Sequence record: ON568341.1
Strand: one strand, 5' to 3'
Origin: Escherichia phage UE-S1
Length of the DNA: 64,000 nt
A program made the translations under genes and the position numbers. This document shows, one piece after another, positions 301-62,858 of the stretch; the first letter of the stretch is position 1, and every line of letters starts with the position of its first letter. The notes beneath the pieces are model-generated. The model was not told where the DNA came from. It worked only from the letters and a program-made list of their open reading frames with translations, and searched no databases.

Positions 301-317
301 AGTTTACATCAAGAAAC

Positions 318-337
318 GGGAAGTAACAGTACTTCCC
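318..337 (+). promoter_or_regulatory. 5-prime UTR stem-loop (GGGAAGTA / TACTTCCC)
   Basis: perfect 8-bp stem, 4-nt loop, between promoter and RBS; same architecture recurs upstream of many early genes. Confidence 0.5.
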
Positions 338-358
338 TACTAACAGAGAGAAAACAAA

Positions 359-571
359 ATGGCTGATATCCGCACTTTACTGAAAAATGCAAAACGAGTT
401 TTATTTTCTGATCACGAACATTTAAACAAGGATATTACTGGCGTTCGGAATATCAAAGATGTAAAACGTGTTATGGGTATCTATTGCAATATGAAACGTG
501 TTGGCACGTTCGGTAATAAATTTCTATACCAGGCGGGGGATTACAATTTTACACTGACTATCATTAACTAA
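359..571 (+). CDS. hypothetical small early protein (70 aa)
   Basis: ORF track; promoter + hairpin + A/G-rich RBS upstream. Confidence 0.6.
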   Translation: MADIRTLLKNAKRVLFSDHEHLNKDITGVRNIKDVKRVMGIYCNMKRVGTFGNKFLYQAGDYNFTLTIIN

Positions 572-590
572 AAATATTATCACAGTACTA

Positions 591-619
591 TTGACATAGT
601 TTGATAGTACTGGCATAAT
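591..619 (+). promoter_or_regulatory. sigma70-type promoter (TTGACA-17-CATAAT)
   Basis: TTGACA 591-596, CATAAT 614-619. Confidence 0.55.
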
Positions 620-653
620 AGATTTTATCAACTACACTACTAAGGAATTAAAA

Positions 654-833
654 ATGGCTATCATCGCAAAAACTGAAATCATCGGCCTGGATTCTATCAT
701 CATGACGTTTGAAGATCAAAAAGGTATGTATGTAGTTTCCTATGGTGATTATGTTCGGGAGTATGAAACAGTAGACGAAGCCTTTGAAAGTTACATTCGC
801 CAGGTGAATAAAGCATACGACGATTACCGCTAA
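654..833 (+). CDS. hypothetical small protein (59 aa)
   Basis: ATG 654 after RBS AAGGAA; not in ORF track (below 60 aa); stop TAA 831-833. Confidence 0.5.
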   Translation: MAIIAKTEIIGLDSIIMTFEDQKGMYVVSYGDYVREYETVDEAFESYIRQVNKAYDDYR

Positions 834-860
834 AATATATTACCAGTACTATTAAAGATA

Positions 861-889
861 TTGACAACGTTTGATAGTACTGGCATAAT
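861..889 (+). promoter_or_regulatory. sigma70-type promoter (TTGACA-17-CATAAT)
   Basis: near-identical copy of promoter at 591-619. Confidence 0.55.
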
Positions 890-946
890 AAGTTTTATAA
901 ACAGTAGTCAAATAGTAGTTAACTTAACAAAAGAGAGAGAAACAAA

Positions 947-1090
947 ATGATCGCACTGGATTCATTCATCGATGCAGTTCTGGCAAAAACTGGCGAGGAT
1001 CTGACCGCAGAACAATACGCAATGATCGAGCAATGCCAGCAAGACGGTAAATCGGTGAAAGATACTGTTAAGATTATCCGCAAGATGTAA
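947..1090 (+). CDS. hypothetical small protein (47 aa)
   Basis: ATG 947 after AGAGAGAGAAACAAA RBS; terminator-like hairpin follows. Confidence 0.45.
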   Translation: MIALDSFIDAVLAKTGEDLTAEQYAMIEQCQQDGKSVKDTVKIIRKM

Positions 1091-1096
1091 GATTAT

Positions 1097-1124
1097 AAGC
1101 CCATTAGTTAACGCTGGTGGGCTT
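1097..1124 (+). terminator. terminator-like hairpin (AAGCCCA / TGGGCTT)
   Basis: 7-bp stem, weak T-run. Confidence 0.3.
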
Positions 1125-1196
1125 TAATCATTTACCCTATACAATGCCAGTACTAAACCGTTTATCTCATTAGAATGCATTACAGGACGTTTAACA

Positions 1197-1394
1197 ATGA
1201 TTAGCATGAAATCAGTACAAAAACAAATAGAAACATTATCAAAAATTAAACGTAAACAGTACTCATTAGAATATAATATCAATGGTAACTATCATCTAAT
1301 GAAAGAGAATAATTTTATCGTCATTGATGAATCATTGCAAATTATTAGTATAGTACTGAAAGCATTAATTAATGATAGAAAAAGGTTAAAATAA
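1197..1394 (+). CDS. hypothetical protein (65 aa)
   Basis: ORF track; weak RBS; 1-nt overlap with next gene. Confidence 0.4.
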   Translation: MISMKSVQKQIETLSKIKRKQYSLEYNINGNYHLMKENNFIVIDESLQIISIVLKALINDRKRLK

Positions 1395-1651
1395 TGGCAG
1401 TAGGATTCGCGAAAGATGGAGCCGAGCAAGATGAGATTAACGCAGTTATTCAAGCCGCCGTTAACCACGCTAGAAAGCAAATTAACGCACAAATAGAATC
1501 ACTGATACATTGCCTCGACTGCGGCGATAAAATCCCTGAGAATCGCCGACAGGCTGTTAAGGGATGTAAGTACTGCATTAATTGCCAAGTGGATCATGAT
1601 AGTACTTTTAAAAGAGATCCGCGTAATTGTTGGCATAGATCTATGAGATAA
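1394..1651 (+). CDS. putative TraR/DksA-like C4 zinc-finger protein
   Basis: CLDCGDKIPENRRQAVKGCKYCINCQ matches the Cx2C-x17-Cx2C pattern of TraR/DksA zinc fingers. Confidence 0.5.
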   Translation: MAVGFAKDGAEQDEINAVIQAAVNHARKQINAQIESLIHCLDCGDKIPENRRQAVKGCKYCINCQVDHDSTFKRDPRNCWHRSMR

Positions 1652-1658
1652 AAAGTAA

Positions 1659-1686
1659 TTGACAGTACTGAAAGATAGTGTATAAT
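1659..1686 (+). promoter_or_regulatory. sigma70-type promoter (TTGACA-16-TATAAT)
   Basis: TTGACA 1659-1664, TATAAT 1681-1686. Confidence 0.6.
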
Positions 1687-1715
1687 GTTTTATATCTTAA
1701 CTGAGGATAGAAATC

Positions 1716-2072
1716 ATGGGAATACAACATATCACGCGGACCACTGACAATGGCGAGATCACTGGTTATCAAGTACAGGGCAAAGTAGCACAATTGCAGT
1801 ACTGGTTTGTTAAACGTGGAATCATTGCACCGGATCTTGATTATGACCGTGTAGCGTTTATTGATTCTCTTTATGTTGATCCTGATAGTCGGGGCAATGG
1901 TGAAGGTAACGAATTAATGAATGCCTTTATCGATGCCGCCGATGATTCAGATTGTATCATCTTAGAATGCGATACGGGAGAAGATAACGCCTTTAATCTT
2001 AAAGAATGGTACGAAGGATTCGGATTCGAGGTACTGATCGATAGTGAATATCCTATCATGATTTTATCATAG
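1716..2072 (+). CDS. hypothetical protein, possible GNAT-like acetyltransferase
   Basis: VDPDSRGNGEGNELMNAF resembles GNAT motif A (R-x-x-G-x-G); 118 aa. Confidence 0.45.
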   Translation: MGIQHITRTTDNGEITGYQVQGKVAQLQYWFVKRGIIAPDLDYDRVAFIDSLYVDPDSRGNGEGNELMNAFIDAADDSDCIILECDTGEDNAFNLKEWYEGFGFEVLIDSEYPIMILS

Positions 2073-2150
2073 TACTTGCATTTAGTTTTCAGTACTGTTA
2101 TAGTACTTGCATCAAGGGGAAACATCTTCCCCTACTAAGAGGAAATAAAA

Positions 2151-2339
2151 ATGGAAAACTTATCAAGTATTTTAGTACAAGATGATTTCGGTAATCCTGG
2201 AAGTGCTATCATTGTTCGGGGCAATAAAGCAACGTTTGTTATTGCTGGTGGACCCGTACAGCGTAGCATTAAAAATAATGCTGTTACCATTAATAATGTA
2301 CGCTATCGCTTAGATAAAGAATTAATTCATAAACTGTAA
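2151..2339 (+). CDS. hypothetical small early protein (62 aa)
   Basis: promoter, GGGGAA..TTCCCC hairpin and RBS upstream. Confidence 0.55.
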   Translation: MENLSSILVQDDFGNPGSAIIVRGNKATFVIAGGPVQRSIKNNAVTINNVRYRLDKELIHKL

Positions 2340-2347
2340 AAAAGTAC

Positions 2348-2375
2348 TGGACAATAGATTATAGTACTGTATAAT
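2348..2375 (+). promoter_or_regulatory. sigma70-type promoter (TGGACA-16-TATAAT)
   Basis: near-copy of promoter at 273-300. Confidence 0.55.
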
Positions 2376-2424
2376 AGTTTACATGAAGGGGAGAAATGAT
2401 TCTCCCCACTAAGAGGAAAGAAAA

Positions 2425-2637
2425 ATGCAAGGTCAACTAATCGTTCGTAAATGGTCTGATACTAACGAAAAACCGTGGGATGTACAATACATCGCCCCAA
2501 ATGGTGAATCCAGATATCAACCAGGTGTAACGCATAGTACTGAGCAATTCGCCGCCGCTCATCGCGAACGTCTGTTACAATCAATGCAGCACGGTTCCGG
2601 TGAAAAATTCATTCAGGATCATTGGCTGAAAGATTAA
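2425..2637 (+). CDS. hypothetical small early protein (70 aa)
   Basis: promoter, hairpin and RBS AAGAGGAAAG upstream. Confidence 0.6.
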   Translation: MQGQLIVRKWSDTNEKPWDVQYIAPNGESRYQPGVTHSTEQFAAAHRERLLQSMQHGSGEKFIQDHWLKD

Positions 2638-2644
2638 AAAGTAC

Positions 2645-2672
2645 TTGCACAGTACTGAATAAAGTGTATAAT
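2645..2672 (+). promoter_or_regulatory. sigma70-type promoter (TTGCAC-16-TATAAT)
   Basis: TTGCAC 2645-2650, TATAAT 2667-2672. Confidence 0.55.
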
Positions 2673-2723
2673 GTTTTATATCGGAAGGGGAATAGTTCCC
2701 CTCCTAACAAAGAGGAAAGTATA

Positions 2724-2897
2724 ATGGTCCAGGTAGAATTAACAGTACTGAAAGATCTGTTTTATCGGATTGGTACTACTGGCGAATATCCGAAGGGTGA
2801 TAATGCAAAACTTTACGTATCACTCGACTTATGGCAACGCGAACAATTAGCAACGGCCTGGCGTAAAGGCAAAGCAGATAGCGAGGTGAAAGCATGA
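2724..2897 (+). CDS. hypothetical small protein (57 aa)
   Basis: ATG 2724 after RBS; track ORF 2622-2897 would run through the promoter, so the internal start is preferred. Confidence 0.5.
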   Translation: MVQVELTVLKDLFYRIGTTGEYPKGDNAKLYVSLDLWQREQLATAWRKGKADSEVKA

Positions 2898-3043
2898 AAG
2901 AATTCTTATTTGAAGTAGTGTTTCAAGGTGTCGGTAATAACCAACTGATTCGAACAAGTGGTTATAATGTTAACCAGGCATGGAATAACATTAAACAAAT
3001 GTACCCGAACGCTATCACATATCGCAACCCGAAAGAAGTTTAA
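2894..3043 (+). CDS. hypothetical small protein (49 aa)
   Basis: ATGA overlap with upstream stop; not in track (below 60 aa). Confidence 0.4.
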   Translation: MKEFLFEVVFQGVGNNQLIRTSGYNVNQAWNNIKQMYPNAITYRNPKEV

Positions 3044-3052
3044 AAATAATTG

Positions 3053-3093
3053 AAAAAGGGATTGACTCCGGTCAGTCCCTTTGCTATTATATA
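3053..3093 (+). promoter_or_regulatory. repeated promoter-like dyad element, copy 1 (TTGACT-17-TATTAT)
   Basis: AAAAAGGGATTGACTCCGGTCAGTCCCTTTGCTATTATATA; exact copies at 6060 and 8319. Confidence 0.55.
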
Positions 3094-3191
3094 CGCATAG
3101 AAACAAATTAGCCCACCGGGTGCATAAATGTATCTATTGTTTGCTGGTGGCTAGTACTATCAAGTACTGAAAACTATTTTTAAAAAAGTAC

Positions 3192-3219
3192 TTGCAAAGT
3201 ATCACGATAAGCGTATAAT
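3192..3219 (+). promoter_or_regulatory. sigma70-type promoter (TTGCAA-16-TATAAT)
   Basis: TTGCAA 3192-3197, TATAAT 3214-3219; structured ORF-less segment downstream. Confidence 0.5.
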
Positions 3220-3307
3220 GTTTTACATCAGGACGGGGAACGAAATAAGTAACCCCGTTAAGTAGTCCAGGAGTAAGACATACGAAAAACTCCCCTGATA
3301 AAATAGT

Positions 3308-3335
3308 TTGACAATAGAAAGTAAACGAGTATAAT
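3308..3335 (+). promoter_or_regulatory. sigma70-type promoter (TTGACA-16-TATAAT)
   Basis: TTGACA 3308-3313, TATAAT 3330-3335. Confidence 0.55.
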
Positions 3336-3368
3336 ACTTACATCAACCACTGATAAGGAAACATTAAA

Positions 3369-3644
3369 ATGCGGACTTTACTTACAGCTAACGAAATCGA
3401 GCAAGTACTGACTACTAATCTGGAACAATGGAAACGTGAAGCAGATATCCAGGCGGTTCAATGCCTTAACGATAAGTTAACGCCAGATGACTTAAGCACG
3501 ATTGTTGATCCACAATTTTATGAAGATATTCACGACACGTCTTTAAGCGTCGAGGATGTACTTGATAAGCACTACATTGATACTGATTTACATGTTTACG
3601 GTCGTAAAAACTTTATCACTATTCACGACATTTACAATACTTAA
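3369..3644 (+). CDS. hypothetical early protein (91 aa)
   Basis: promoter and RBS upstream. Confidence 0.6.
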   Translation: MRTLLTANEIEQVLTTNLEQWKREADIQAVQCLNDKLTPDDLSTIVDPQFYEDIHDTSLSVEDVLDKHYIDTDLHVYGRKNFITIHDIYNT

Positions 3645-3647
3645 GTA

Positions 3648-3675
3648 TTGACAAAGTATCTTAGTACTGTATAAT
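3648..3675 (+). promoter_or_regulatory. sigma70-type promoter (TTGACA-16-TATAAT)
   Basis: TTGACA 3648-3653, TATAAT 3670-3675. Confidence 0.55.
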
Positions 3676-3731
3676 AGTTTACATCAAGCGAGGGGAATGG
3701 TTCCCCTCCTAACAAAGAGAGAGAAATAAAA

Positions 3732-4055
3732 ATGGCTATGATCCTTACCCAGAAAGTAGAACTGAAAATTGTAACCTCCTTTGACATTAAAGTTAATCGG
3801 TGGACTGATAGCCACGGCAATACTTACCACTCCTGCTACGTGTCCGCATTGATTGGTGATCGCTGGGAAGACCTGGGACACGAAACCTTTACATACGGTT
3901 ACGGCACACAAGGCGAGTACACGGGTTTAGAAATCATTAAGGAAACTGTAATAGGTTTCAACCCGAAAGAGAAAGTACTACACAGAATTGAGAAAGAGAT
4001 CAACAAAGAAATTACAGTTCGCTACTACGATGTAAAACGTAAGAAAGACATGTAA
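3732..4055 (+). CDS. hypothetical early protein (107 aa)
   Basis: promoter, GGGGAATGGTTCCCC hairpin, RBS. Confidence 0.6.
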   Translation: MAMILTQKVELKIVTSFDIKVNRWTDSHGNTYHSCYVSALIGDRWEDLGHETFTYGYGTQGEYTGLEIIKETVIGFNPKEKVLHRIEKEINKEITVRYYDVKRKKDM

Positions 4056-4077
4056 TAGAATCCATTTAAAGTACTAT

Positions 4078-4106
4078 TTGACATTGCCCAGATAGTACTT
4101 TATAAT
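4078..4106 (+). promoter_or_regulatory. sigma70-type promoter (TTGACA-17-TATAAT)
   Basis: TTGACA 4078-4083, TATAAT 4101-4106. Confidence 0.55.
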
Positions 4107-4150
4107 AGACTCTAACTTGTAGTACTAACTCAACTAATAGGATGTATACC

Positions 4151-4546
4151 ATGATTACTAAATTCTACGCTACCCGTGAAGCTGCCCGTATTGTTGCACG
4201 CGAGGAAGGAGCAGCATTTAAAGACATGGGCAAAGATGCAACGAAAGGTCAACGCTGGGCCGTACAGTTCAAAGAAATCTCTGATATTGTGAATTCACCT
4301 GAGCCAGTACTGACAGCAGCAGAACTAAAACGAGCGGATATGCTGGCGGCAATACTTGACGCACAAGATGAGTTTATCGCTGACTCTGATATCAAAGTAC
4401 AGGTAAACCACACCGCATGGACTCACGCGGATCACCTGGCAAACCTTAAGCGTCCAAGTGAACTGATTCGCAACCAGAAAGAGATCCGACATGATCGTAA
4501 GGGTAATCGTGTAACAGTATACAGTAAACGCCGCCAGGTTATCTAA
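4151..4546 (+). CDS. hypothetical protein (131 aa; alternative start 4142)
   Basis: AGGA RBS 9 nt upstream of ATG 4151; intrinsic terminator follows. Confidence 0.6.
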   Translation: MITKFYATREAARIVAREEGAAFKDMGKDATKGQRWAVQFKEISDIVNSPEPVLTAAELKRADMLAAILDAQDEFIADSDIKVQVNHTAWTHADHLANLKRPSELIRNQKEIRHDRKGNRVTVYSKRRQVI

Positions 4547-4568
4547 TAACTTGCAGTACTAACAACAC

Positions 4569-4593
4569 GGCGGGATCAGTTCCCGCCTTTTTT
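4569..4593 (+). terminator. rho-independent terminator
   Basis: GGCGGGA / TCCCGCC stem followed by TTTTTT. Confidence 0.7.
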
Positions 4594-4607
4594 ATAGGAC
4601 AAACAAA

Positions 4608-4862
4608 ATGATTAAGGTTCAACTATATAAAGATAACATCTTACGGGTACACTATAAAGCACCTCAGAGAATCATCACAAAGGCCGTACAGCTTGCTAAT
4701 GAGTTTATTAATGGTAACCTATTACCTAGGAAGTTAAGCAACGGAAAACTGCGTGTAATCGACGTGGACACTAACAACAGGATAGTAATCGAGAACACAG
4801 GAAAAATAAACCTATATGAACACCAACAATACAATAAGAAAATAAAACTAATATCACGTTGA
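4608..4862 (+). CDS. hypothetical protein (84 aa)
   Basis: RBS GGACAAACAAA upstream. Confidence 0.5.
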   Translation: MIKVQLYKDNILRVHYKAPQRIITKAVQLANEFINGNLLPRKLSNGKLRVIDVDTNNRIVIENTGKINLYEHQQYNKKIKLISR

Positions 4863-4887
4863 CAGTACTCAAATGTTTTAGTATTAT
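4859..4887 (+). promoter_or_regulatory. sigma70-type promoter (TTGACA-17-TATTAT), duplicated unit A
   Basis: 60-bp promoter/5-prime UTR block nearly identical to 5135-5191. Confidence 0.5.
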
Positions 4888-4915
4888 GTACACATACCAA
4901 CACGGGAGAAACAAA

Positions 4916-5134
4916 ATGAAATTATCTAAAATCGAAAAGAAAACTATTGATGAAGCAGTTAAGCACGGTTATACCTTTCGTAATGATTCACATTTTACCA
5001 ATTTTCAACAGGGGTATCGTACTATTAAAAAACTAATTGACAAAGGTTTATTAGTTGAAGTCAATAATGGGAACGGTATCGAGTATCAGCCAACCCAAGA
5101 CGCATTATCTTTAAAGAAATATAATATTATCTAA
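4916..5134 (+). CDS. hypothetical protein (72 aa)
   Basis: ATG 4916 after GGGAGAAACAAA RBS; track ORF from 4859 includes the promoter. Confidence 0.55.
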   Translation: MKLSKIEKKTIDEAVKHGYTFRNDSHFTNFQQGYRTIKKLIDKGLLVEVNNGNGIEYQPTQDALSLKKYNII

Positions 5135-5163
5135 TTGACAGTACTCAAATGTTTTAGTACTAT
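5135..5163 (+). promoter_or_regulatory. sigma70-type promoter (TTGACA-17-TACTAT), duplicated unit B
   Basis: copy of 4859-4887 block. Confidence 0.5.
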
Positions 5164-5191
5164 ATGTACATACCAACACGGGGGAAACAAA

Positions 5192-5434
5192 ATGATTACT
5201 TTAGAAAAACGTATCAAAGAAACTACATCGCTGGTGGAACTGTTAACAGTACTCAAATGTAAAACAACACCATTTAGCACGCCGGACTTTATTAATATGG
5301 TTGATGTTAATGGTCGCTATCGTATCACGGTCGAACAAGGAGCGGCGAAAGTATTCAGTACTAAAAACACGAAGGAAGTGATCCACGCCGTTAATGTTAA
5401 AAAAGTAGTTGCCATTGATAGTAAAGTACTGTAA
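5192..5434 (+). CDS. hypothetical protein (80 aa)
   Basis: ATG 5192 after GGGGGAAACAAA RBS. Confidence 0.55.
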   Translation: MITLEKRIKETTSLVELLTVLKCKTTPFSTPDFINMVDVNGRYRITVEQGAAKVFSTKNTKEVIHAVNVKKVVAIDSKVL

Positions 5435-5465
5435 TATAGTTTCATTAACTCAAGGAGAACATGCA

Positions 5466-6050
5466 ATGCGTAATTATACTAAATTCATCCGTACACTGTC
5501 AGAAATGGAAACCAACAAAGAGATCCTTTCAGCTTGTCGGTTAGCTGGCCTGGAGATCATCGGTGCTGGTTCTTCCCGTATAGTTTTCGCTTTAAATGAT
5601 CGGTTAGTGATTAAGGTCGCGAATTGTGATGCGGGTGTAGAACAAAATGAAACTGAATGTAAGGTATGGAATTTTTTAGACTATGACCGCCCTCAGTTGA
5701 AACAGTACTTTGCAAAGGTGCATATGCATTTATGCGATCCTGATAATATGTTTATCGTTATGGATCGGTTGAGTACTGCAAGCAAAGGTAGTGTGAAGCA
5801 CGTAAACGCGTGCAATGAATTAAAGTACAATATTAAACGTAATGCAATCGAACGCCATCACCGCTTTGCTGATGCACTACAACACGTCGATGATACATTA
5901 TCAACACTAACGATAAGAGATATCAGAAAACAGAATATCGGCCAGGATCGTAATGGCCTTATTAAAGTACTTGATTACGGTTTAACCTGCAATATCTGGA
6001 ATCAGTACTATAAAAAGCGTGATGTGGCAGCAAGTAAGGTAACACGATAA
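5466..6050 (+). CDS. putative minimal Hanks-type protein kinase-like protein
   Basis: GAGSSRIV (Gly loop), VIK (lysine), IRDIRKQNIG (catalytic loop), LDYG (DFG-like) in canonical order; RBS AAGGAGAA. Confidence 0.45.
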   Translation: MRNYTKFIRTLSEMETNKEILSACRLAGLEIIGAGSSRIVFALNDRLVIKVANCDAGVEQNETECKVWNFLDYDRPQLKQYFAKVHMHLCDPDNMFIVMDRLSTASKGSVKHVNACNELKYNIKRNAIERHHRFADALQHVDDTLSTLTIRDIRKQNIGQDRNGLIKVLDYGLTCNIWNQYYKKRDVAASKVTR

Positions 6051-6059
6051 AAAAGATTA

Positions 6060-6100
6060 AAAAAGGGATTGACTCCGGTCAGTCCCTTTGCTATTATATA
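6060..6100 (+). promoter_or_regulatory. repeated promoter-like dyad element, copy 2
   Basis: TTGACT 6069-6074, TATTAT 6092-6097. Confidence 0.55.
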
Positions 6101-6191
6101 TCCATTGAGAGATAACTCACTGACCCATAGGGTGCGGAAGTGTATCTATTATATAAGTATTCAGTACTGAAAACTATTTTTAAAAAAGTAC

Positions 6192-6219
6192 TTGCAAACT
6201 ATCTCAATGAGCGTATAAT
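6192..6219 (+). promoter_or_regulatory. sigma70-type promoter (TTGCAA-16-TATAAT)
   Basis: copy of promoter at 3192-3219. Confidence 0.55.
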
Positions 6220-6274
6220 GTTTTATATCGAGAGGGGGAAATGGTTCTCCCTAGTACTAAAAGGAATCAAGACG

Positions 6275-6496
6275 ATGACTACTATGACCTGCGTTCACGC
6301 TTCAAATCTTCTGAATGATGCAGCATTTAAAGCAGGTGAAGAATATCAATGCTATCGGGATGAAAATAAAAAAGTTTTTGTAGTTGATAATAATGGTTTC
6401 CATATTGAATTACAATCCGGCTTCACTGGTTTAAATGGTAAATCAGTATGGGGCGTACAGGATGATAAAGGTACATATCATTTTAAACGTAATTAA
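6275..6496 (+). CDS. hypothetical protein (73 aa)
   Basis: ATG 6275 after hairpin and AAAAGGAA RBS; track start 6140 lies upstream of the promoter. Confidence 0.5.
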   Translation: MTTMTCVHASNLLNDAAFKAGEEYQCYRDENKKVFVVDNNGFHIELQSGFTGLNGKSVWGVQDDKGTYHFKRN

Positions 6497-6499
6497 GTA

Positions 6500-6527
6500 T
6501 TGACAAAGTATATCAGTACTGTATAAT
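6500..6527 (+). promoter_or_regulatory. sigma70-type promoter (TTGACA-16-TATAAT)
   Basis: TTGACA 6500-6505, TATAAT 6522-6527. Confidence 0.55.
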
Positions 6528-6577
6528 AGTTTACATCAAGGGGAGAATGGTTCTCCCCACTAAAAGGAAACAAAATT

Positions 6578-6850
6578 ATGTCCAGCTACTCCGCTACTAT
6601 GATCATTAAAGATATGAACGGTAATCCTACTTCTGCTGGTGGATCATTTGGAAACATTAATTTAGATGGTCGGTTATCCATGCAATCAGCCATCGATGCA
6701 GCGAAAGAAGTTTTTAAGAATGAATGTACTGTTAGTAAGCTGGATTATATGGGTTTCGCTATCGAGAAAACTACTCGTTTTGTGAACTACAAAAATCCAC
6801 TGATGATTGATACTAACCTGAAAGCTAACGAAGTGGGGTACTTATTATGA
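6578..6850 (+). CDS. hypothetical protein (90 aa)
   Basis: promoter, hairpin, RBS. Confidence 0.6.
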   Translation: MSSYSATMIIKDMNGNPTSAGGSFGNINLDGRLSMQSAIDAAKEVFKNECTVSKLDYMGFAIEKTTRFVNYKNPLMIDTNLKANEVGYLL

Positions 6851-7038
6851 CAGTAGAAGAAGTAAAAAAAGTACTGGCAGTACTACGATATCATAATCAT
6901 TGCAAGGTGAAGAATGATCCTGATTATCTTGATTCATCCCTGGAGGAAGACACCTTGAACGCTATAAGCCATATGCAGACATTAGCAAAGCGTATGACTG
7001 AAAAGAACATGCCGGACTATATCGGAAATAAAATTTAA
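6847..7038 (+). CDS. hypothetical protein (63 aa)
   Basis: ATGA overlap with upstream gene. Confidence 0.5.
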   Translation: MTVEEVKKVLAVLRYHNHCKVKNDPDYLDSSLEEDTLNAISHMQTLAKRMTEKNMPDYIGNKI

Positions 7039-7045
7039 AAAGTAC

Positions 7046-7073
7046 TTGCATTGTAGTTAGATTAACGTATAAT
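7046..7073 (+). promoter_or_regulatory. sigma70-type promoter (TTGCAT-16-TATAAT)
   Basis: TTGCAT 7046-7051, TATAAT 7068-7073. Confidence 0.5.
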
Positions 7074-7124
7074 GTTTTATATCGAGAGGGGAAATGGTTT
7101 CCCCTCAAGTCCAGGAGATACACC

Positions 7125-7388
7125 ATGAACACTATCGAAATCACTATCAATGCACACGTATACGACAACGTAGTACTGCAAACTACTATGACCGCCAATG
7201 ATACCAGTACTTTGCGGAATACTGTTATTAGTGCTGTATGTGCCGCTATCGGTGATGTATCCCTGGAAAATTCAGAACACATCAACAACGGTTTCACTAT
7301 GTGCAAACGTGATAACGCAAAACATATCATCGTGGAAGGTTACGGCGGTGTAGAATTTAATGTTTATATGAAAAAAGTACTTGCATAA
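7125..7388 (+). CDS. hypothetical protein (87 aa)
   Basis: promoter, hairpin, RBS CAGGAGA. Confidence 0.6.
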   Translation: MNTIEITINAHVYDNVVLQTTMTANDTSTLRNTVISAVCAAIGDVSLENSEHINNGFTMCKRDNAKHIIVEGYGGVEFNVYMKKVLA

Positions 7389-7408
7389 TAACTAAAACAA
7401 AGTATAAT
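7381..7408 (+). promoter_or_regulatory. sigma70-type promoter (TTGCAT-16-TATAAT)
   Basis: overlaps 3-prime end of preceding gene. Confidence 0.5.
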
Positions 7409-7455
7409 GTTTTGCATAGGGGGAGATATCCTCCCCCACTAAAAGGAGTAATAAA

Positions 7456-7680
7456 ATGGCTAACTTTGATGAACTGATGCGGGAAGTAGCTTACCTGGCA
7501 GAAGAGAAGAAATCATTCGATTCTATCTATAACACCGCTCACCGTGATTCAGTACTGGCATGTAACCAGGATCAAAAAGATGAACTAATCGCCACCTATC
7601 ATGAAGCATGGAAGTACTACCGACAATGGGAGAAAGAAGAAAGTGAGTCTACCATTGACGGCCTCAATAATCTAATCTAA
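7456..7680 (+). CDS. hypothetical protein (74 aa)
   Basis: promoter, GGGGGAGATATCCTCCCCC hairpin, RBS. Confidence 0.6.
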   Translation: MANFDELMREVAYLAEEKKSFDSIYNTAHRDSVLACNQDQKDELIATYHEAWKYYRQWEKEESESTIDGLNNLI

Positions 7681-7699
7681 AAGTTTTATTTCAGTACTA

Positions 7700-7728
7700 T
7701 TGACATAGCTTGATAGTACTGATGTAAT
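7700..7728 (+). promoter_or_regulatory. sigma70-type promoter (TTGACA-17-TGTAAT)
   Basis: TTGACA 7700-7705. Confidence 0.5.
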
Positions 7729-7756
7729 AACTTTACTAACTACAAGGGGAAACATA

Positions 7757-8014
7757 ATGGATCAATTCACACAATATCGGGTAAATCCTCAAGCTATGGC
7801 CTACGTAGAAGACCATAAAACGTTACCAGTACTGCAACCAGTTAAAGGCCGTATCTATCGTGGCCTTGCCTGGGATACGGCCCAGGATGGATATAAAACC
7901 GTCGCCGTGGGTATGTATTGCGGTGATGGTGAATGGTTTGATCCAAATAATCCGGTATCCATTGACAGTACTGAAAAAATGAAATGGGCCGACTACATCG
8001 AAGATATTTCATAA
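7757..8014 (+). CDS. hypothetical protein (85 aa)
   Basis: promoter and RBS upstream. Confidence 0.6.
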   Translation: MDQFTQYRVNPQAMAYVEDHKTLPVLQPVKGRIYRGLAWDTAQDGYKTVAVGMYCGDGEWFDPNNPVSIDSTEKMKWADYIEDIS

Positions 8015-8021
8015 AAACTAT

Positions 8022-8049
8022 TTGACAGTACTAACCAGTAATGTATAAT
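8022..8049 (+). promoter_or_regulatory. sigma70-type promoter (TTGACA-16-TATAAT)
   Basis: TTGACA 8022-8027, TATAAT 8044-8049. Confidence 0.55.
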
Positions 8050-8104
8050 GTTTTACATAGAGCGGGGGAATAGTTCTCCCGCCAATAGTTTGGAGTAAAA
8101 CATT

Positions 8105-8305
8105 ATGTCTATCGCTATCGCCCTGGTTGAAGTACTGAAAGAAGCTAAAGCCAACCTTATCGACGTAAAGATCCAGGAACTACAAAACGGCTTAATCGGC
8201 TGTACTTGTACCGCTGGTGGAGCGGCAGACTATCGAGAACACGAATCACTCGAATCACTGGTTCGGTATCTTACCATGATCGTTGATGATTGGAGAATCA
8301 TCTAA
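8105..8305 (+). CDS. hypothetical protein (66 aa)
   Basis: promoter, hairpin, RBS. Confidence 0.55.
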   Translation: MSIAIALVEVLKEAKANLIDVKIQELQNGLIGCTCTAGGAADYREHESLESLVRYLTMIVDDWRII

Positions 8306-8318
8306 CAAAAAAGAATAA

Positions 8319-8359
8319 AAAAAGGGATTGACTCCGGTCAGTCCCTTTGCTATTATATA
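8319..8359 (+). promoter_or_regulatory. repeated promoter-like dyad element, copy 3
   Basis: TTGACT 8328-8333, TATTAT 8351-8356. Confidence 0.55.
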
Positions 8360-8468
8360 CGCATAGACAAAAACTAGCCCACAGGGTGCATAGGTGTATC
8401 CAAAATATATAGTTAATAACGGTGAGTAACTATCTGCTGGTGGAACTAAAACTATTAATAAAAAAGTA

Positions 8469-8497
8469 TTGACAAAGTATATCAGTACTGCAATAAT
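8469..8497 (+). promoter_or_regulatory. sigma70-type promoter (TTGACA-17-AATAAT)
   Basis: TTGACA 8469-8474; weaker -10. Confidence 0.45.
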
Positions 8498-8550
8498 GTA
8501 TCTCGTAGGGCGGCAATGGTGCGACGGCCCACAAAGTTAGGAGATTCACC

Positions 8551-8883
8551 ATGAGTACTTCAATCGCTATCGTTAAAGCTTTCATCCGTACTAATGTTTC
8601 CTCTGTATTCATCGACGGCCTCGACCGTAACGTAGAATACTCAATCATTATCGCACAAACGGCAAACGGTTCTCGGTACATCCTGAATGATAGTGAAGCA
8701 AATCACTACTACTTCACTAAAGCCACTGGCTTTAAACGCATCGATGCTGATGTAGTATACGCTAAGATGAATAAGCTGGTAGACAAGATTAACGCGAAAG
8801 GTACTATCGATTTACAGTACTGGACCGAAACCGATCCAGAATATGGATCTCACCGCTACCTGAATCCAGGTATCAAAATGTAA
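8551..8883 (+). CDS. hypothetical protein (110 aa)
   Basis: RBS AGGAGA upstream. Confidence 0.6.
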   Translation: MSTSIAIVKAFIRTNVSSVFIDGLDRNVEYSIIIAQTANGSRYILNDSEANHYYFTKATGFKRIDADVVYAKMNKLVDKINAKGTIDLQYWTETDPEYGSHRYLNPGIKM

Positions 8884-8890
8884 AAAGTAC

Positions 8891-8918
8891 TTGCATAGTA
8901 CTTAGATTCATGTATAAT
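8891..8918 (+). promoter_or_regulatory. sigma70-type promoter (TTGCAT-16-TATAAT)
   Basis: TTGCAT 8891-8896, TATAAT 8913-8918. Confidence 0.5.
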
Positions 8919-8972
8919 GTTTTACATAGAGAGGGGGAAATGGTTCTCCCTCCTAAATTAAGGAGTTTTATC

Positions 8973-9374
8973 ATGACCTTCTCAATCACTTCCTTCGCTG
9001 ACGTTTTAGTACTGGCCCGGACTTTTGGTAAAGCTGGCCTTGAGCACGCTGTAAGTAATGGTCATATGCACCCTGAATATTGCCGCATCATCGGTAGCTG
9101 CAAACGTTGGGCCGTGTCCCGTAACATTGAGATTGAAAACTTCAATGACGGCAACAACGAATATACAGTTGATGCAGTATTCGAAGCCGTTGATCTCGGC
9201 GGTATCTATAACACTAACCTGAATGATGTGCGTATCGTTCGCACGGGGTTCGGTGCTTATGATGTATCTATCCGTGAAGCTATGGACAAGGGATACATTA
9301 GCAAGGACCAGTTAGCTTACATCATGCAGCAAACTAAGGAACGTAACGAAGCACGTACTATCTTAGGGTTGTAA
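8973..9374 (+). CDS. hypothetical protein (133 aa)
   Basis: ATG 8973 after AAGGAG RBS; track start 8910 lies in the promoter. Confidence 0.6.
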   Translation: MTFSITSFADVLVLARTFGKAGLEHAVSNGHMHPEYCRIIGSCKRWAVSRNIEIENFNDGNNEYTVDAVFEAVDLGGIYNTNLNDVRIVRTGFGAYDVSIREAMDKGYISKDQLAYIMQQTKERNEARTILGL

Positions 9375-9442
9375 GCGTTACACATCACCAAACATCATAG
9401 GCCGCCTTGTAGCGGCCTTAACTATATCAGGAGTTCATACAC

Positions 9443-9652
9443 ATGAACTATACAGTATACAGCGTTCTAGGCACTATTGCAGGCGTACATGATAACGTCG
9501 ATGGTGCTATGCGTACAGTACTGCAACAGGTTCCACTAAAGCCTAAGACCATTAAGCAGATGACAGCACGACTAACCAGGGCGACGGCTGGCGTGGAAGT
9601 ATGGCAGGACTATGGGGATACACAGATAATCGTAAGCGTAACGAAGGATTAA
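9443..9652 (+). CDS. hypothetical protein (69 aa)
   Basis: RBS CAGGAG upstream. Confidence 0.55.
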   Translation: MNYTVYSVLGTIAGVHDNVDGAMRTVLQQVPLKPKTIKQMTARLTRATAGVEVWQDYGDTQIIVSVTKD

Positions 9653-9680
9653 TGCGTAAAAGGATTTAGTACTGATTCAG

Positions 9681-9747
9681 AAAAAAGTCAAGGCGTTTTT
9701 TAAATTATGCGTTAAAAAAATGCATAGGTAATCCCTTGACTTTTTTG
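9681..9747. promoter_or_regulatory. long inverted repeat at module boundary (13-bp arms AAAAAAGTCAAGG / CCTTGACTTTTTT)
   Basis: perfect arms ~40 bp apart, T-run after right arm; possible terminator of early unit. Confidence 0.4.
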
Positions 9748-9843
9748 AAATAAAAGGGATTGGACTATGGCAAAATGCGTAGGGGGCTAAAGGGCGGGTA
9801 ACCTTAGCGACTTCGTTAAAGGGGTATTACGAATAAAATGTTA

Positions 9844-9871
9844 TTGACTTTTTATATAAATCGTATAAAAT
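9844..9871 (+). promoter_or_regulatory. sigma70-type promoter (TTGACT-16-TAAAAT) for FamA array
   Basis: TTGACT 9844-9849; only clear promoter before a 6-kb run of overlapping genes. Confidence 0.45.
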
Positions 9872-9901
9872 ATGATTGATAATAATTTTAAGGGAGTCCC
9901 T

Positions 9902-10099
9902 GTGCGTATTTTAACTCAAGCAGAACACCACGAAAGACTTATCAATAACATGGCTATGATAATGTATAAGTCCCATGACCGTGGTATTGCATATAAGCGT
10001 GAATTAGTACTGGAACTATTCATTGGGACTAACTATCAGGAAAGGTATGTCAACGATTGGATTTGGTATTTAATTGAAGATATAACGAGTAAACTATGA
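9902..10099 (+). CDS. FamA small paralog (LGTNYQE family)
   Basis: GTG 9902 after AAGGGAG RBS (track ATG 9872 sits inside promoter); motif FIGTNYQERYV. Confidence 0.6.
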   Translation: MRILTQAEHHERLINNMAMIMYKSHDRGIAYKRELVLELFIGTNYQERYVNDWIWYLIEDITSKL

Positions 10100-10290
10100 T
10101 AATTTTAACTAAAGAAGAATATCAATCACTGTTACGTAAAAACTACGTAAAGATTTACAATACAGCCACACACGTAGAACGAATGGAGTTATACCTTTTG
10201 ATTACATTGGGAACTAACTATCAGGAAAGATGGGTGATTCAATATATGGATACATTGAAAAATAAAATATTGTCCACGAGGAAACAATGA
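10096..10290 (+). CDS. FamA small paralog
   Basis: motif LGTNYQERWV; 4-nt overlaps. Confidence 0.65.
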   Translation: MIILTKEEYQSLLRKNYVKIYNTATHVERMELYLLITLGTNYQERWVIQYMDTLKNKILSTRKQ

Positions 10291-10496
10291 AAATCATAAC
10301 ACACAGACAAGCATTGAGTCGTATGGTGAAGTATCTTGAATTGATGGTGTCTATACCAAAGAGCTTACCAAAAACTGAAAGAGAGATACATTCAGCAGAG
10401 TATCGTCTATTAGCAGTACTGAATACTAACTACCAAGATGAATATGTTGACGATTGGATTCTATCATTAATAGAAGATATAAAGAGTAAACTATGA
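10287..10496 (+). CDS. FamA small paralog
   Basis: motif LNTNYQDEYV. Confidence 0.65.
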   Translation: MKIITHRQALSRMVKYLELMVSIPKSLPKTEREIHSAEYRLLAVLNTNYQDEYVDDWILSLIEDIKSKL

Positions 10497-61861: not shown

Positions 61862-62118
61862 TGTTCAAAACCGACTTATCACATTTTCGATATCTTAGGT
61901 CTTTGGCTGATGATTTTATAAATGATCTTAAGCCAAAATATATTGGTCAAGAAGTACGATTAATAAACTCCAGAGGGTATGGAAAGTATATTATAACGGA
62001 TATGTATATTAGTGCTGGTGAGTGGTGTTTTAAAATTAACACTTATCTTAAAGATGGTTCTTTTGCTGGAACACAAGTTACTAAACATACTAATATTATA
62101 TGGTTGGAGCAACAATGA
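61861..62118 (+). CDS. hypothetical small protein
   Basis: ORF track. Confidence 0.5.
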   Translation: MFKTDLSHFRYLRSLADDFINDLKPKYIGQEVRLINSRGYGKYIITDMYISAGEWCFKINTYLKDGSFAGTQVTKHTNIIWLEQQ

Positions 62119-62858
62119 AACACTTTTTAGAAGTAACCGTGCCTGATGATAAAGATTTATATATTGTAGGTGATTTGCATGGTAATGGTAAACTATGGGA
62201 TGCTACAGTAAAAGAATTTGGTATTACACACAATGATTATGTTTTCAGTGTAGGTGATGTTATCGACCGTGGAGAACAAAATTCAAAGCTCCTTTTTGAA
62301 TTTTTGTTCGGTGAAAATCGTTACATGATTGCTGGTAATCATGAGATGATGTGTGTTGATTCTGAAACACTTCGAGATTGGTATCATTGTTGGATAAGTA
62401 ATGGTGGTGATAAATTCCTTGATGAAGTTGGAGGGACAGGTATTCAATTCTTTCGTCAGTACTTGAAAGATTTACCTATGATTATCCAAATCAACCATAG
62501 AGGCTTGAAGATCGGGTTAGTTCATGCTGGAGTTCCTTTGGAATATACAACATGGGAACGATTTGTTAATGGGACAAAATCACTTAGTGCTGATATAGTT
62601 GATAAGTGCTTGTGGGATAGGAAAACATTCGATTATTGTAGGACAAATAATACTTATTATGCACCTAAGTTAGATGGAGTGCATTGTGTCTTTAGTGGAC
62701 ATACAGCAGTTACTGAACCACTCATTTATGGCAATCGCATTTGGATTGATAGTCAGTTCTTGACGGGTGACTTAACTCTCGCTACTCCACAAAGTGGTGG
62801 GATGAGATACTTACGTAAAGAAAAAGATGAGTACTCATTCAGTCGTTTCAAAAGGTAA
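62115..62858 (+). CDS. Ser/Thr protein phosphatase (lambda-PPase-like metallophosphoesterase)
   Basis: GDLHG, GDVIDRG, GNHE motifs in canonical order; ATGA overlap. Confidence 0.8.
   Translation: MKHFLEVTVPDDKDLYIVGDLHGNGKLWDATVKEFGITHNDYVFSVGDVIDRGEQNSKLLFEFLFGENRYMIAGNHEMMCVDSETLRDWYHCWISNGGDKFLDEVGGTGIQFFRQYLKDLPMIIQINHRGLKIGLVHAGVPLEYTTWERFVNGTKSLSADIVDKCLWDRKTFDYCRTNNTYYAPKLDGVHCVFSGHTAVTEPLIYGNRIWIDSQFLTGDLTLATPQSGGMRYLRKEKDEYSFSRFKR

What the first reader, a model, noticed from the sequence alone, without database searches (positions are those of the whole stretch)
5466..6050. Minimal Hanks-type kinase-like ORF in the early region, with a Ser/Thr phosphatase at the far end
The 194-aa ORF has a Gly-rich loop (GAGSSRIV), VIK lysine, IRDIRKQNIG catalytic-loop-like segment and LDYG in the order of a eukaryotic-like protein kinase core, compressed into about two-thirds of the usual length. 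A lambda-type phosphatase is at 62115-62858. An early kinase for host takeover paired with a phosphatase would be a reversible phospho-regulatory pair.
Basis: partly seen in the sequence, partly recalled or inferred. Interest (0 to 1): 0.55.

Follow-up and report, generated by a model that had tools for sequence, protein, structure and literature searches.

The report
Compact early protein-kinase-like gene, jumbo coliphage
A 194-residue gene in the terminal-repeat early region of an Asteriusvirus jumbo coliphage almost certainly encodes a stripped-down kinase that keeps the catalytic residues of protein kinases but lacks their regulatory and substrate-docking half; this was already suspected in public annotations and has never been tested, and its proposed partnership with the distant phosphatase gene has no support.

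Summary
The ORF at 5466-6050 (+) is a real, selected gene (194 aa, AAGGAG ribosome-binding site, dN/dS 0.04-0.18).

The protein ends 22 residues after DYG, so the activation segment and helices F-I are absent. It shares this layout with T7 gp0.7 but is only remotely related to that family (hhalign E 2e-4).

The window is an Asteriusvirus (PBECO4/121Q/G17-like). The gene lies in the ~21-kb direct terminal repeat, among consensus sigma-70 promoters, so it is probably immediate-early.

GenBank, UniProt and one paper already call orthologues a "protein kinase, function unknown".

The lambda-type phosphatase at 62115-62858 is real. However, it sits 38-59 kb from the kinase in every genus checked, and it occurs in 1250 phage records against 53 for the kinase. 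Nothing shows the two genes work as a pair.

Verdict: a new member of a known kind, of moderate interest.

The parts
5409..5437 (+). Sigma-70-type promoter directly upstream of the kinase gene (TTGCCA, 17 nt, TAATAT). Its spacer carries the AGTACTG motif shared by the other early promoters of the terminal repeat.
   Evidence: 9/12 match. AGTACTGTAWWAT gives 16 matches against 1.1 expected, 7 of them on the + strand in 1-8.1 kb, including 5425-5437. Stronger promoters lie further upstream at 4859-4887 and 5135-5163, with no terminator-like site found between them and the gene.
5452..5457 (+). Shine-Dalgarno sequence AAGGAG, 8 nt before the ATG.
   Evidence: Sequence read.
5466..6050 (+). Coding sequence of a 194-aa, 22.4-kDa, pI 9.1 protein-kinase-like protein (PHROG 4301).
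   Evidence: dN/dS is 0.04-0.18 against four Asteriusvirus orthologues. AlphaFold2 pLDDT 93.5, pTM 0.90.
5562..5585 (+). Gly-rich (phosphate-binding) loop GAGSSRIV, aa 33-40. The third glycine of GxGxxG is replaced by an invariant Arg (R38).
   Evidence: R38 52/52, S36 50/52, G35 45/52, G33 42/52. It lies in the beta1-beta2 hairpin of the model.
5607..5615 (+). VIK, aa 48-50: beta3 strand with the ATP-anchoring Lys (K50).
   Evidence: K50 52/52. The Pfam Pkinase match starts at aa 46 = profile position 26, which places VIK near the profile's VAIK region; residue-level register is inferred, as no alignment was displayed.
5631..5657 (+). AGVEQNETE, aa 56-64: start of helix C with the family signature G..QN..E. 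E64 is the presumed salt-bridge partner of K50.
   Evidence: G57, Q60 and E64 are 52/52, N61 49/52. Helix 55-73 in the model.
5913..5942 (+). Catalytic loop IRDIRKQNIG, aa 150-159: catalytic base D152 and Mg-binding N157.
   Evidence: Aligns to HRDIKPSNIL of MKK4 and HRDIKPQNIL of PknB-like kinases. D152 51/52, G159 51/52. N157 is 26/52 family-wide and at least 90% among the jumbo-phage relatives.
5970..5981 (+). LDYG, aa 169-172: the DFG-equivalent Mg-binding motif.
   Evidence: D170 and G172 52/52; Y171 40/52 (F in 9). Aligns to DFG of MKK4 and BTK.
5988..6011 (+). Short C-terminal aromatic helix (NIWNQYYK, aa 175-182) that ends the domain. No activation segment, APE motif or helices F-I follow.
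   Evidence: Helix 175-182 in the model. Y181/Y182 are mostly aromatic across the family. Median tail after DxG is 22 aa in 107 relatives.
6062..6097 (+). 12-bp hairpin (6062-6089) just after the stop codon, overlapping the next gene's promoter (TTGACT, 17 nt, TATTAT; 6069-6097). Probably the end of the kinase transcript and the start of the next.
   Evidence: Identical copies start at 3055 and 8321.
62115..62858 (+). It is a real gene, but no link to the kinase is shown.

Best explanation
The ORF encodes an ultra-compact member of the protein-kinase-like superfamily. It consists of a two-helix N-terminal extension, a complete N-lobe, helices D and E, the catalytic loop, a DYG Mg-binding motif and one short closing helix.

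It most likely binds Mg-ATP through R38/K50/E64/N157/D170 and transfers the gamma-phosphate using D152 as catalytic base. This is inferred from residue conservation and the model, not shown.

It has no activation segment and is a non-RD kinase in most relatives, so it is probably constitutively active and controlled only by when it is made.

It lies in the ~21-kb direct terminal repeat, behind host-type sigma-70 promoters. It should therefore be made by host RNA polymerase in the first minutes of infection.

By analogy with T7 gp0.7 and JSS1_004, the most likely role is broad Ser/Thr(/Tyr) phosphorylation of host proteins (and perhaps phage proteins) for takeover or to disarm defence systems.

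Rough probabilities: kinase-like fold with ATP phosphotransfer about 0.85; protein substrate about 0.6; takeover or anti-defence role about 0.4.
For: Sequence:
- Pfam Pkinase is the only coherent hit, and every PDB hit is a protein kinase with the catalytic loop and DFG in register.
- The 52-member profile gives MKK4 3.4e-5 and 691 PDB sequences at E<=1; all 60 listed are protein kinases.
- Pkinase is hit by 11 of 52 members, best 5.7e-6.
- K50, E64, D170 and G172 are invariant and D152 is 51/52.
- dN/dS is 0.04-0.18.

Structure:
- AlphaFold2 pLDDT 93.5, pTM 0.90.
- Foldseek hits APH(2''), Lpg2603, MEK1, OSR1, MKK4, PknB and PRPK.
- Independent BFVD models of orthologues agree (TM 0.85-0.88).

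Precedent for a truncated but active kinase:
- The T7 gp0.7 family aligns over 135 columns with all motifs in register (E 2e-4).
- The K-to-D, D-to-N and N-to-D spacings are identical to T7K (102, 5, 13).

Early expression:
- The gene is at 16,690 of the 21,525-bp repeat in phage vB_Ec-M-J.
- The repeats were verified experimentally in fEgEco12 (PMC13070987).
- The window has 9 perfect TTGACA/TATAAT promoters against 0.2 expected, 7 of them in 1-8.1 kb.
- The kinase's own promoter shares the early-promoter spacer motif.
- The same small-gene array surrounds a 52%-identical relative.

Role by analogy:
- T7K and JSS1_004 are early phage kinases that disarm defences (PMC13645617).
- Terminal-repeat proteins carry fewer Ser+Thr+Tyr (15.6% against ~19%, p 3.5e-4), the pattern reported for early proteins of T7K phages. 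This is weak and confounded evidence.
Against: - There are no biochemical data for any member of the family.
- The best structural match is an aminoglycoside kinase, not a protein kinase, and SAICAR synthetase ranks second.
- The elements that bind peptide substrates in canonical kinases (activation segment, P+1 loop, helix G) are missing.
- The catalytic-loop Asn is kept in only 26 of 52 relatives.
- The Pfam score is below the curated cut-off.
- Asteriusviruses already carry a separate T7K-like kinase (Sharanji gp144), so a second promiscuous protein kinase might be redundant.
- Early timing rests on promoter consensus and position only.
- The Ser/Thr/Tyr depletion could reflect protein size or class, or the other kinase.
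Confidence: 0.55

Rival explanations
1. The protein is a kinase-fold enzyme whose substrate is not a protein. It could phosphorylate RNA (as the ~170-220-aa archaeal tRNA 2'-kinase ArkI does), a nucleotide or signalling molecule, or a small molecule (as aminoglycoside kinases do).
For: - All peptide-docking elements are absent.
- Six of 52 members hit the atypical ABC1 family.
- In 3 of 5 distinct metagenomic contexts, a distant homologue sits within about 5 kb of RNA-repair genes: AAA_33/tRNA_lig_CPD plus Rnl1; KTI12/AAA_33 plus RtcB; PF09414 RNA ligase.
Against: - Sequence-level similarity goes to Ser/Thr/Tyr protein kinases. No member hit the Pfam APH, choline-kinase, Kdo/WaaP or RIO families at E<=0.1 among the families listed.
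- The helical substrate-binding subdomain of APH enzymes is also absent.
- T7 gp0.7 (same layout; PMC13645617) and HopBF1 (from my own knowledge of the literature) are minimal kinases that act on proteins.
- No RNA-repair gene lies near the gene in this window or in its close relatives.
- Large phages often carry RNA ligases, so the adjacency may be chance.
Confidence: 0.2
2. One reading: the early kinase and the lambda-type phosphatase at 62115-62858 form a dedicated reversible phospho-regulatory pair, with the phosphatase later erasing what the kinase wrote.
For: - Both genes are real, and both are conserved across Asteriusvirus, the RaK2 (Alcyoneusvirus) group, Munch-like phages, Hallingskeid and XbC2.
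- The phosphatase region lacks sigma-70 promoter enrichment (82 found against 82.1 expected). That would fit later expression and hence a temporal order.
Against: - The genes are 56 kb apart here. From the coordinates they are 38-59 kb apart in vB_Ec-M-J, Munch, RaK2, Muenster, XbC2 and Hallingskeid. They are never adjacent.
- The phosphatase family is in 1250 phage records (T5-like, lambdoid, Vequintavirinae-like, vibriophages) against 53 for the kinase.
- Eneladusviruses keep the phosphatase but give no tblastn hit to the kinase at E<=1e-5.
- No metallophosphatase lies within 6 kb (8 kb for one locus) of any distant kinase homologue.
- Co-occurrence is explained by a shared genome backbone.
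Confidence: 0.12
3. The protein is a pseudokinase or nucleotide-binding scaffold. It binds ATP or a host partner but does not catalyse phosphotransfer, for example by mimicking a kinase client or inhibiting a host factor.
For: - The C-lobe core (helix F) that anchors the catalytic and regulatory spines in canonical kinases is missing.
- The catalytic-loop Asn varies across the family (26 of 52).
- The third G-loop glycine is replaced by Arg.
Against: - Near-absolute conservation of K50, E64, D152 and D170 across sequences only 20-30% identical is the signature of an active site under selection.
- T7K homologues have the same truncated layout and are reported to be highly active (PMC13645617).
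Confidence: 0.06
4. The motif resemblance is chance, and the protein has a non-kinase fold.
For: The single-sequence scores are weak: Pfam E 0.003, below the cut-off, and best PDB E 0.011. The first AlphaFold2 run, with 11 sequences, left the C-terminal half at pLDDT below 50.
Confidence: 0.02

Closest known systems
T7 gp0.7 protein kinase (T7K; phrog_2828/15752; Pfam PF27024) and relatives such as JSS1_004
   Same: - It is a phage gene in a leading-end region carrying host sigma-70-type promoters, and the T7 record places gp0.7 immediately upstream of an E. coli promoter and the T7 RNA polymerase gene.
- The kinase core has the same truncated layout, ending about 20 residues after the DFG-equivalent Asp.
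- The Lys-Asp-Asn-Asp spacings are identical (102, 5, 13).
- hhalign aligns 135 columns with all motifs in register (E 2e-4, probability 47%).
- BFVD models of T7K-like proteins are structural neighbours (TM about 0.53).
   Different: - It belongs to a different sequence family: phrog_4301, with no hit to the T7K PHROGs.
- It has DYG rather than the DPV motif.
- Its G-loop is GxGSSR rather than GNGHFS, and it has the G..QN..E helix-C signature.
- It has no C-terminal DNA-binding/shut-off domain.
- Asteriusviruses carry a separate true T7K homologue (Sharanji gp144, 224 aa, ITDPLS), which is not in this window.
Eukaryotic-like (Hanks-type) Ser/Thr/Tyr protein kinases such as MKK4, PknB and BTK (Pfam PF00069/PF07714)
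   Different: - It lacks subdomains VIII-XI entirely (activation segment, APE, helices F-I).
- It has no HRD His, and the Arg of RD is not conserved.
- The third G-loop Gly is an invariant Arg.
- The Pfam score is below the gathering threshold.
Other minimal kinase-fold enzymes: HopBF1 (type III effector, 6PWD), ArkI tRNA 2'-kinase (8YV5, 7VNX), and Bud32/PRPK and Rio2
   Different: No specific sequence relationship was detected. The structural scores are no better than for ordinary kinases. Their substrates differ (HSP90, tRNA, KEOPS/ribosome), so they do not predict a substrate here.
Aminoglycoside 2''-phosphotransferases, APH(2'')
   Different: There was no Pfam APH hit for any of the 52 members among the families listed. 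APH enzymes have a helical substrate-binding subdomain after the core that is absent here.
Lambda Ser/Thr phosphatase / NinI (PDB 1G5B; phrog_246), for the ORF at 62115-62858
   Same: It has the GDxHG, GDxxDRG and GNHE motifs. It matches 1G5B at E 2e-16 over the full length and phrog_246 at 8.5e-66.
   Different: It is about 25 residues longer. No role is shown for it here, and from my own knowledge no in vivo role is established for the phage family.

Membership tests
Protein-kinase-like superfamily (catalytic core) | Gly-rich phosphate-binding loop on the beta1-beta2 hairpin | tested here: met
   GAGSSRIV, aa 33-40. G33 42/52, G35 45/52, S36 50/52. It is a variant: the third Gly is an invariant Arg, R38.
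Protein-kinase-like superfamily (catalytic core) | beta3 Lys paired with a helix-C Glu | tested here: met
   K50 52/52 and E64 52/52. They lie on strand 47-52 and helix 55-73 of the model.
Protein-kinase-like superfamily (catalytic core) | Catalytic loop D-x4-N followed 13 residues later by the Mg-binding D-x-G | tested here: met
   D152 (51/52), N157 (26/52 family-wide; at least 90% in the jumbo-phage subgroup), D170 and G172 (52/52). The loop aligns to HRDIKPSN...DFG of MKK4.
Protein-kinase-like superfamily (catalytic core) | Bilobal kinase fold | tested here: met
Protein-kinase-like superfamily (catalytic core) | ATP-dependent phosphotransfer activity | not testable with these tools
   This needs biochemistry.
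Canonical Hanks-type protein kinase domain (Pfam PF00069) | Score at or above Pfam's gathering threshold | tested here: not met
   17.4 bits against a cut-off of 31.7, E 0.003. Eleven of 52 relatives match at E<=0.1, best 5.7e-6.
Canonical Hanks-type protein kinase domain (Pfam PF00069) | Subdomains VIII-XI: activation segment with APE, helix F Asp, helices G-I | tested here: not met
   Only 22 residues follow DYG, with a single helix at 175-182. The family median tail is 22 aa.
T7 gp0.7 (T7K) family | Sequence membership (T7K PHROGs / PF27024) | tested here: not met
   The ORF and all 52 relatives match phrog_4301. T7K matches phrog_2828, 15752 and 18305, and there are no cross-hits. hhalign shows a remote relationship only (E 2e-4, probability 47%). 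PF27024 is not in the local Pfam copy: T7K itself gave 0 hits.
T7 gp0.7 (T7K) family | DPV motif in place of DFG | tested here: not met
   The motif here is DYG (Y 40/52, F 9/52). T7K and Sharanji gp144 have DPV and DPL.
T7 gp0.7 (T7K) family | C-terminal shut-off/DNA-binding domain | tested here: not met
   The protein ends at residue 194, and no such domain is present. According to PMC13645617, the jumbo-phage T7K homologues also lack it.
T7 gp0.7 (T7K) family | Early gene transcribed by host RNA polymerase | tested here: inconclusive
   Promoter consensus and terminal-repeat position fit, but there are no transcript data.
Aminoglycoside/choline-kinase type small-molecule kinases | Pfam APH-type profile match and a helical substrate-binding subdomain after the core | tested here: not met
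Dedicated kinase-phosphatase module | Genomic linkage or specific co-occurrence of the two genes | tested here: not met
   The genes are 56 kb apart here and 38-59 kb apart in other genera. The phosphatase is in 1250 phage records against 53 for the kinase. No phosphatase lies within 6 kb (8 kb for one locus) of the distant homologues.
Lambda-type PPP phosphatase (for ORF 62115-62858) | GDxHG / GDxxDRG / GNHE metal-binding motifs and full-length similarity to lambda phosphatase | tested here: met
   GDLHG, GDVIDRG and GNHE. 1G5B E 2e-16, residues 7-229 aligned to 7-220. Metallophos 44.8 bits against a cut-off of 21.5.

The most novel reading that the evidence does not exclude
PHROG 4301 is a large clade of ultra-compact kinases found so far only on phage-like contigs (about 2,000 clusters at 50% identity). 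It is distinct from T7K and absent from Pfam and NCBIfam. In this reading its physiological substrate is not protein but RNA or a nucleotide (ArkI-like), and it acts together with phage RNA-repair and counter-defence genes. That would make the early kinase of Asteriusviruses a new kind of nucleic-acid or signal-modifying takeover enzyme, not a second protein kinase.
Probability: 0.12. Interest if true: 0.75.

Novelty: new member of a known kind. Interest (0 to 1): 0.4.

Why it matters
Early phage kinases have recently been shown to disarm many bacterial defence systems at once (T7K, JSS1_004). This gene belongs to a second, sequence-distinct family with the same stripped-down architecture. The family has about 2,000 clusters in metagenomes, sometimes occurs as two or three tandem copies in one protein, and has no Pfam or NCBIfam model.

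Asteriusviruses carry both families in one genome, plus a lambda-type phosphatase. That makes them a convenient system for two questions: whether such kinases are redundant or specialised, and how a kinase works without helix F and an activation segment.

In practice, the result gives these therapy-candidate jumbo phages a better-founded annotation for one of their hundreds of unknown early genes.

Tried and rejected
- AlphaFold2 with the shallow 11-sequence alignment gave a confident N-lobe only (pLDDT 53.6), so it was not used for fold searches. The 52-sequence alignment fixed this.
- The search for related loci with the 52-sequence alignment failed because no stretch was conserved enough.
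- Supplementary Table 8 of the T7K paper is not held. I identified the jumbo-phage T7K homologue instead through the Sharanji paper and record. It is a different gene from this ORF.
- A search for a paralogue or a T7K homologue inside the window found none (hmmsearch and phmmer on 394 six-frame ORFs).
- The local Pfam copy lacks PF27024, so that membership could not be scored directly.
- NCBIfam has no model for the kinase.
- The TTG start at 5409 was rejected as an ORF-caller extension through the promoter.
- Literature searches found no experimental study of this family.

Full report
**What the window is.** Bases 4500-7500 match 68 phage records at 80-97% identity. All the best matches are ~350-385-kb Asteriusvirus jumbo coliphages (Ecwhy_1, fEgEco12, vB_Ec-M-J, G17, PBECO4, 121Q, Sharanji).

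**The observation.**
- The ORF runs from ATG 5466 to the stop ending at 6050 and is 194 aa. An AAGGAG sits 8 nt upstream.
- The ORF lister's longer TTG start at 5409 runs through the promoter. It is not used by any orthologue.
- All four motifs are present as quoted: GAGSSRIV (aa 33-40), VIK (48-50), IRDIRKQNIG (150-159) and LDYG (169-172).
- Pairwise dN/dS against four Asteriusvirus orthologues is 0.04-0.18, so this is a protein-coding gene under purifying selection.

**Is it a kinase? Sequence evidence.**
- Single-sequence evidence is weak but coherent. Pfam Pkinase gives E 0.003 and 17.4 bits, below the 31.7 cut-off. All 16 PDB hits at E<=10 are protein kinases. RDIRKQNI aligns to HRDIKPSNI and LDYG aligns to DFG.
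- PHROGs places the protein in phrog_4301, 'unknown function' (E 2e-41).
- An exhaustive profile search found 2085 cluster representatives at E<=1e-3. Those listed are mostly 180-260 aa.
- In a 52-sequence alignment reaching down to ~20% identity, the invariant positions are R38, K50, G57, Q60, E64, D170 and G172. D152 and G159 are 51/52. These include the ATP-anchoring Lys, the helix-C Glu, the catalytic Asp and the Mg-binding Asp of protein-kinase-like enzymes.
- The D-to-N (5) and N-to-D (13) spacings are canonical.
- The 52-sequence profile hits 691 distinct PDB sequences at E<=1, and all 60 listed are protein kinases (MKK4 3.4e-5, then BTK, MKK6, PAK, PLK4).
- Eleven of 52 members hit Pfam Pkinase (best 5.7e-6) and six hit ABC1.

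**Is it a kinase? Structure evidence.**
- With 11 sequences, AlphaFold2 resolved only the N-lobe. With 52 sequences it gave pLDDT 93.5 and pTM 0.90.
- The predicted elements are: two N-terminal helices; beta1-3 (30-52); a long helix C (55-73); beta4 and beta5; helices D (109-121) and E (130-145); the catalytic loop; two short strands; DYG; and one closing helix (175-182).
- Foldseek agreed.
- In BFVD, independent models of the orthologues match at TM 0.85-0.88. Many other 140-230-aa phage proteins share the fold, including T7K-type kinases.

**What is missing.**
- The chain stops 22 residues after DYG. In 107 single-domain relatives the median tail is also 22 residues, and 78% have 30 or fewer. 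Canonical kinases have about 110-130 residues there; this figure is from established knowledge of the fold.
- So the activation segment, APE/P+1 loop and helices F-I are absent family-wide.
- The HRD His is absent, and the RD Arg is not conserved.
- The protein therefore fails the definition of a canonical Hanks-type domain while keeping the catalytic core.

**Relation to T7 gp0.7.**
- The T7K family has the same layout and the same Lys-Asp-Asn-Asp spacings (K93, D195, N200, D213).
- Profile-profile comparison aligns 135 columns with every motif in register, but only at E 2e-4 and probability 47%.
- The PHROG families do not overlap.
- Asteriusviruses carry a genuine T7K homologue elsewhere: Sharanji gp144, 224 aa, with ITDPLS, BLASTP E 4e-8 to T7K. 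It is not in this window.
- So these phages have two distinct minimal kinases.

**Context and timing.**
- In vB_Ec-M-J the orthologue lies at 16,690-17,274 of an annotated 21,525-bp direct terminal repeat. In Klebsiella phage Muenster it also lies in the predicted repeat.
- By offset, the repeat ends near window position 10,300.
- Up to that point the median gap between genes is 81 nt. After it, the median gap is -4 nt.
- The window has 9 perfect TTGACA-N16/17-TATAAT sites against 0.2 expected. Seven are on the + strand in 1-8.1 kb.
- The kinase has its own weaker promoter (TTGCCA-17-TAATAT, 5409-5437). It carries the AGTACTG spacer motif of that promoter family (16 matches against 1.1 expected).
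- A 12-bp hairpin fused to the next promoter follows the stop codon (6062-6097).
- A 52%-identical metagenomic relative sits in the same kind of small-gene array.
- This supports immediate-early, host-polymerase transcription. It remains an inference from sequence.

**The phosphatase.**
- The ORF at 62115-62858 is a bona fide lambda/NinI-type metallophosphatase.
- It is conserved throughout the RaK2-like jumbo phages but always lies 38-59 kb from the kinase (coordinates).
- Its neighbourhood shows no promoter enrichment (82 found against 82.1 expected).
- The family occurs in 1250 phage records, against 53 for the kinase.
- Eneladusviruses have the phosphatase but give no kinase hit at E<=1e-5.
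- No metallophosphatase lies within 6 kb (8 kb for one locus) of the distant kinase homologues examined.
- The pairing is therefore an untested idea, not a finding.

**Mechanism.**
- Shown: a conserved gene, conserved catalytic residues, a predicted kinase-like fold, a truncated C-lobe, and location in a promoter-rich terminal repeat.
- Inferred: Mg-ATP binding and phosphotransfer; constitutive activity, since there is no activation segment; early expression; and protein substrates with a takeover or anti-defence role, by analogy with T7K and JSS1_004 (PMC13645617).
- One weak consistent signal: proteins of the repeat contain 15.6% Ser+Thr+Tyr against ~19% in the rest of the window (Mann-Whitney p 3.5e-4). 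This resembles the depletion reported for early proteins of T7K phages. It is confounded by protein class and by the second kinase.
- The main rival is a non-protein substrate. It rests on the APH and ArkI structural matches, the missing peptide-docking elements, and RNA-repair genes near distant homologues in 3 of 5 contexts.

**Novelty.**
- Several GenBank records already label orthologues 'serine/threonine-protein kinase', 'protein kinase domain-containing protein' or 'putative protein kinase'.
- The UniProt name shown in BFVD for a PBECO4 fragment is 'Protein kinase domain-containing protein'.
- The Sharanji paper states that WNN14351.1, the orthologue of this ORF, is 'another protein kinase, which function is unknown' (PMC11895373).
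- No experimental work on the family was found.
- It is best filed as a new, uncharacterised member of a known kind: early phage kinases with a minimal kinase fold.

Noticed in passing
window 3055-3092, 6062-6099, 8321-8358 (+): Three identical copies of AAAGGGATTGACTCCGGTCAGTCCCTTTGCTATTATAT. Each is a 12-bp hairpin whose stem and loop contain a TTGACT -35 box, followed by a TATTAT -10 box. This looks like a fused terminator-promoter unit between early genes.
   Followed up: partly
window 273-8049 (+), also 17367 and 48539: There are nine perfect TTGACA-N16/17-TATAAT promoters against 0.2 expected, seven of them in the first 8.1 kb. Many share an AGTACTG (ScaI-like palindrome) just before the -10 box, which might be an operator for shutting off early transcription.
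   Followed up: partly
window ~10,300: Gene organisation changes sharply at the inferred end of the direct terminal repeat. The median intergenic gap is 81 nt before it and -4 nt (overlapping small genes) after it.
   Followed up: partly
window 1-10,300 versus 10,300-64,000: Proteins of the terminal repeat are poorer in Ser and Tyr: Ser+Thr+Tyr is 15.6% against ~19% (p 3.5e-4). This is reminiscent of the depletion reported for early proteins of T7-kinase phages. It is confounded and not controlled for protein class.
   Followed up: partly
Sharanji OR545507.1 66,182-66,856 (L004:26183-26857, -); not in the window: Asteriusviruses carry a second, unrelated minimal kinase, a true T7 gp0.7 homologue. 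It is 224 aa, has ITDPLS, lacks the shut-off domain and ends 18 residues after DPL.
   Followed up: yes
proteins P0021, P0026, P0031, P0033, P0035, P0039 and others (metagenomic): Some family members are single polypeptides with two or three tandem complete copies of the minimal kinase domain. For example, P0021 is 693 aa with three copies, each carrying a GxGS[SA]R-type G-loop, VIK, QN..E and DYG.
   Followed up: partly
loci L005-L007, L012, L014: Distant family members in large-phage contigs lie next to or near RNA-repair genes: AAA_33/tRNA_lig_CPD, NUDIX, Rnl1 and HD_4; KTI12/AAA_33 and RtcB; PF09414 RNA ligase. In another lineage (L008, L011, L013) the gene is a lone opposite-strand insert in a replication gene block.
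   Followed up: partly
loci L009 7745-7996 and L010 3654-3905: In the 52%-identical relative, the gene immediately upstream of the kinase matches Pfam ParE_like, a toxin-fold family.
   Followed up: no
window 60667-61314 (+): This 215-aa ORF has a hydrophobic N-terminus, a Lys-rich middle and a Ser/Asp-rich tail (…SSSPSDSCSYDSSSSDSSSSSGSCD). It lies ~0.8 kb upstream of the phosphatase. A tail this rich in Ser would be an obvious kinase or phosphatase substrate candidate.
   Followed up: no
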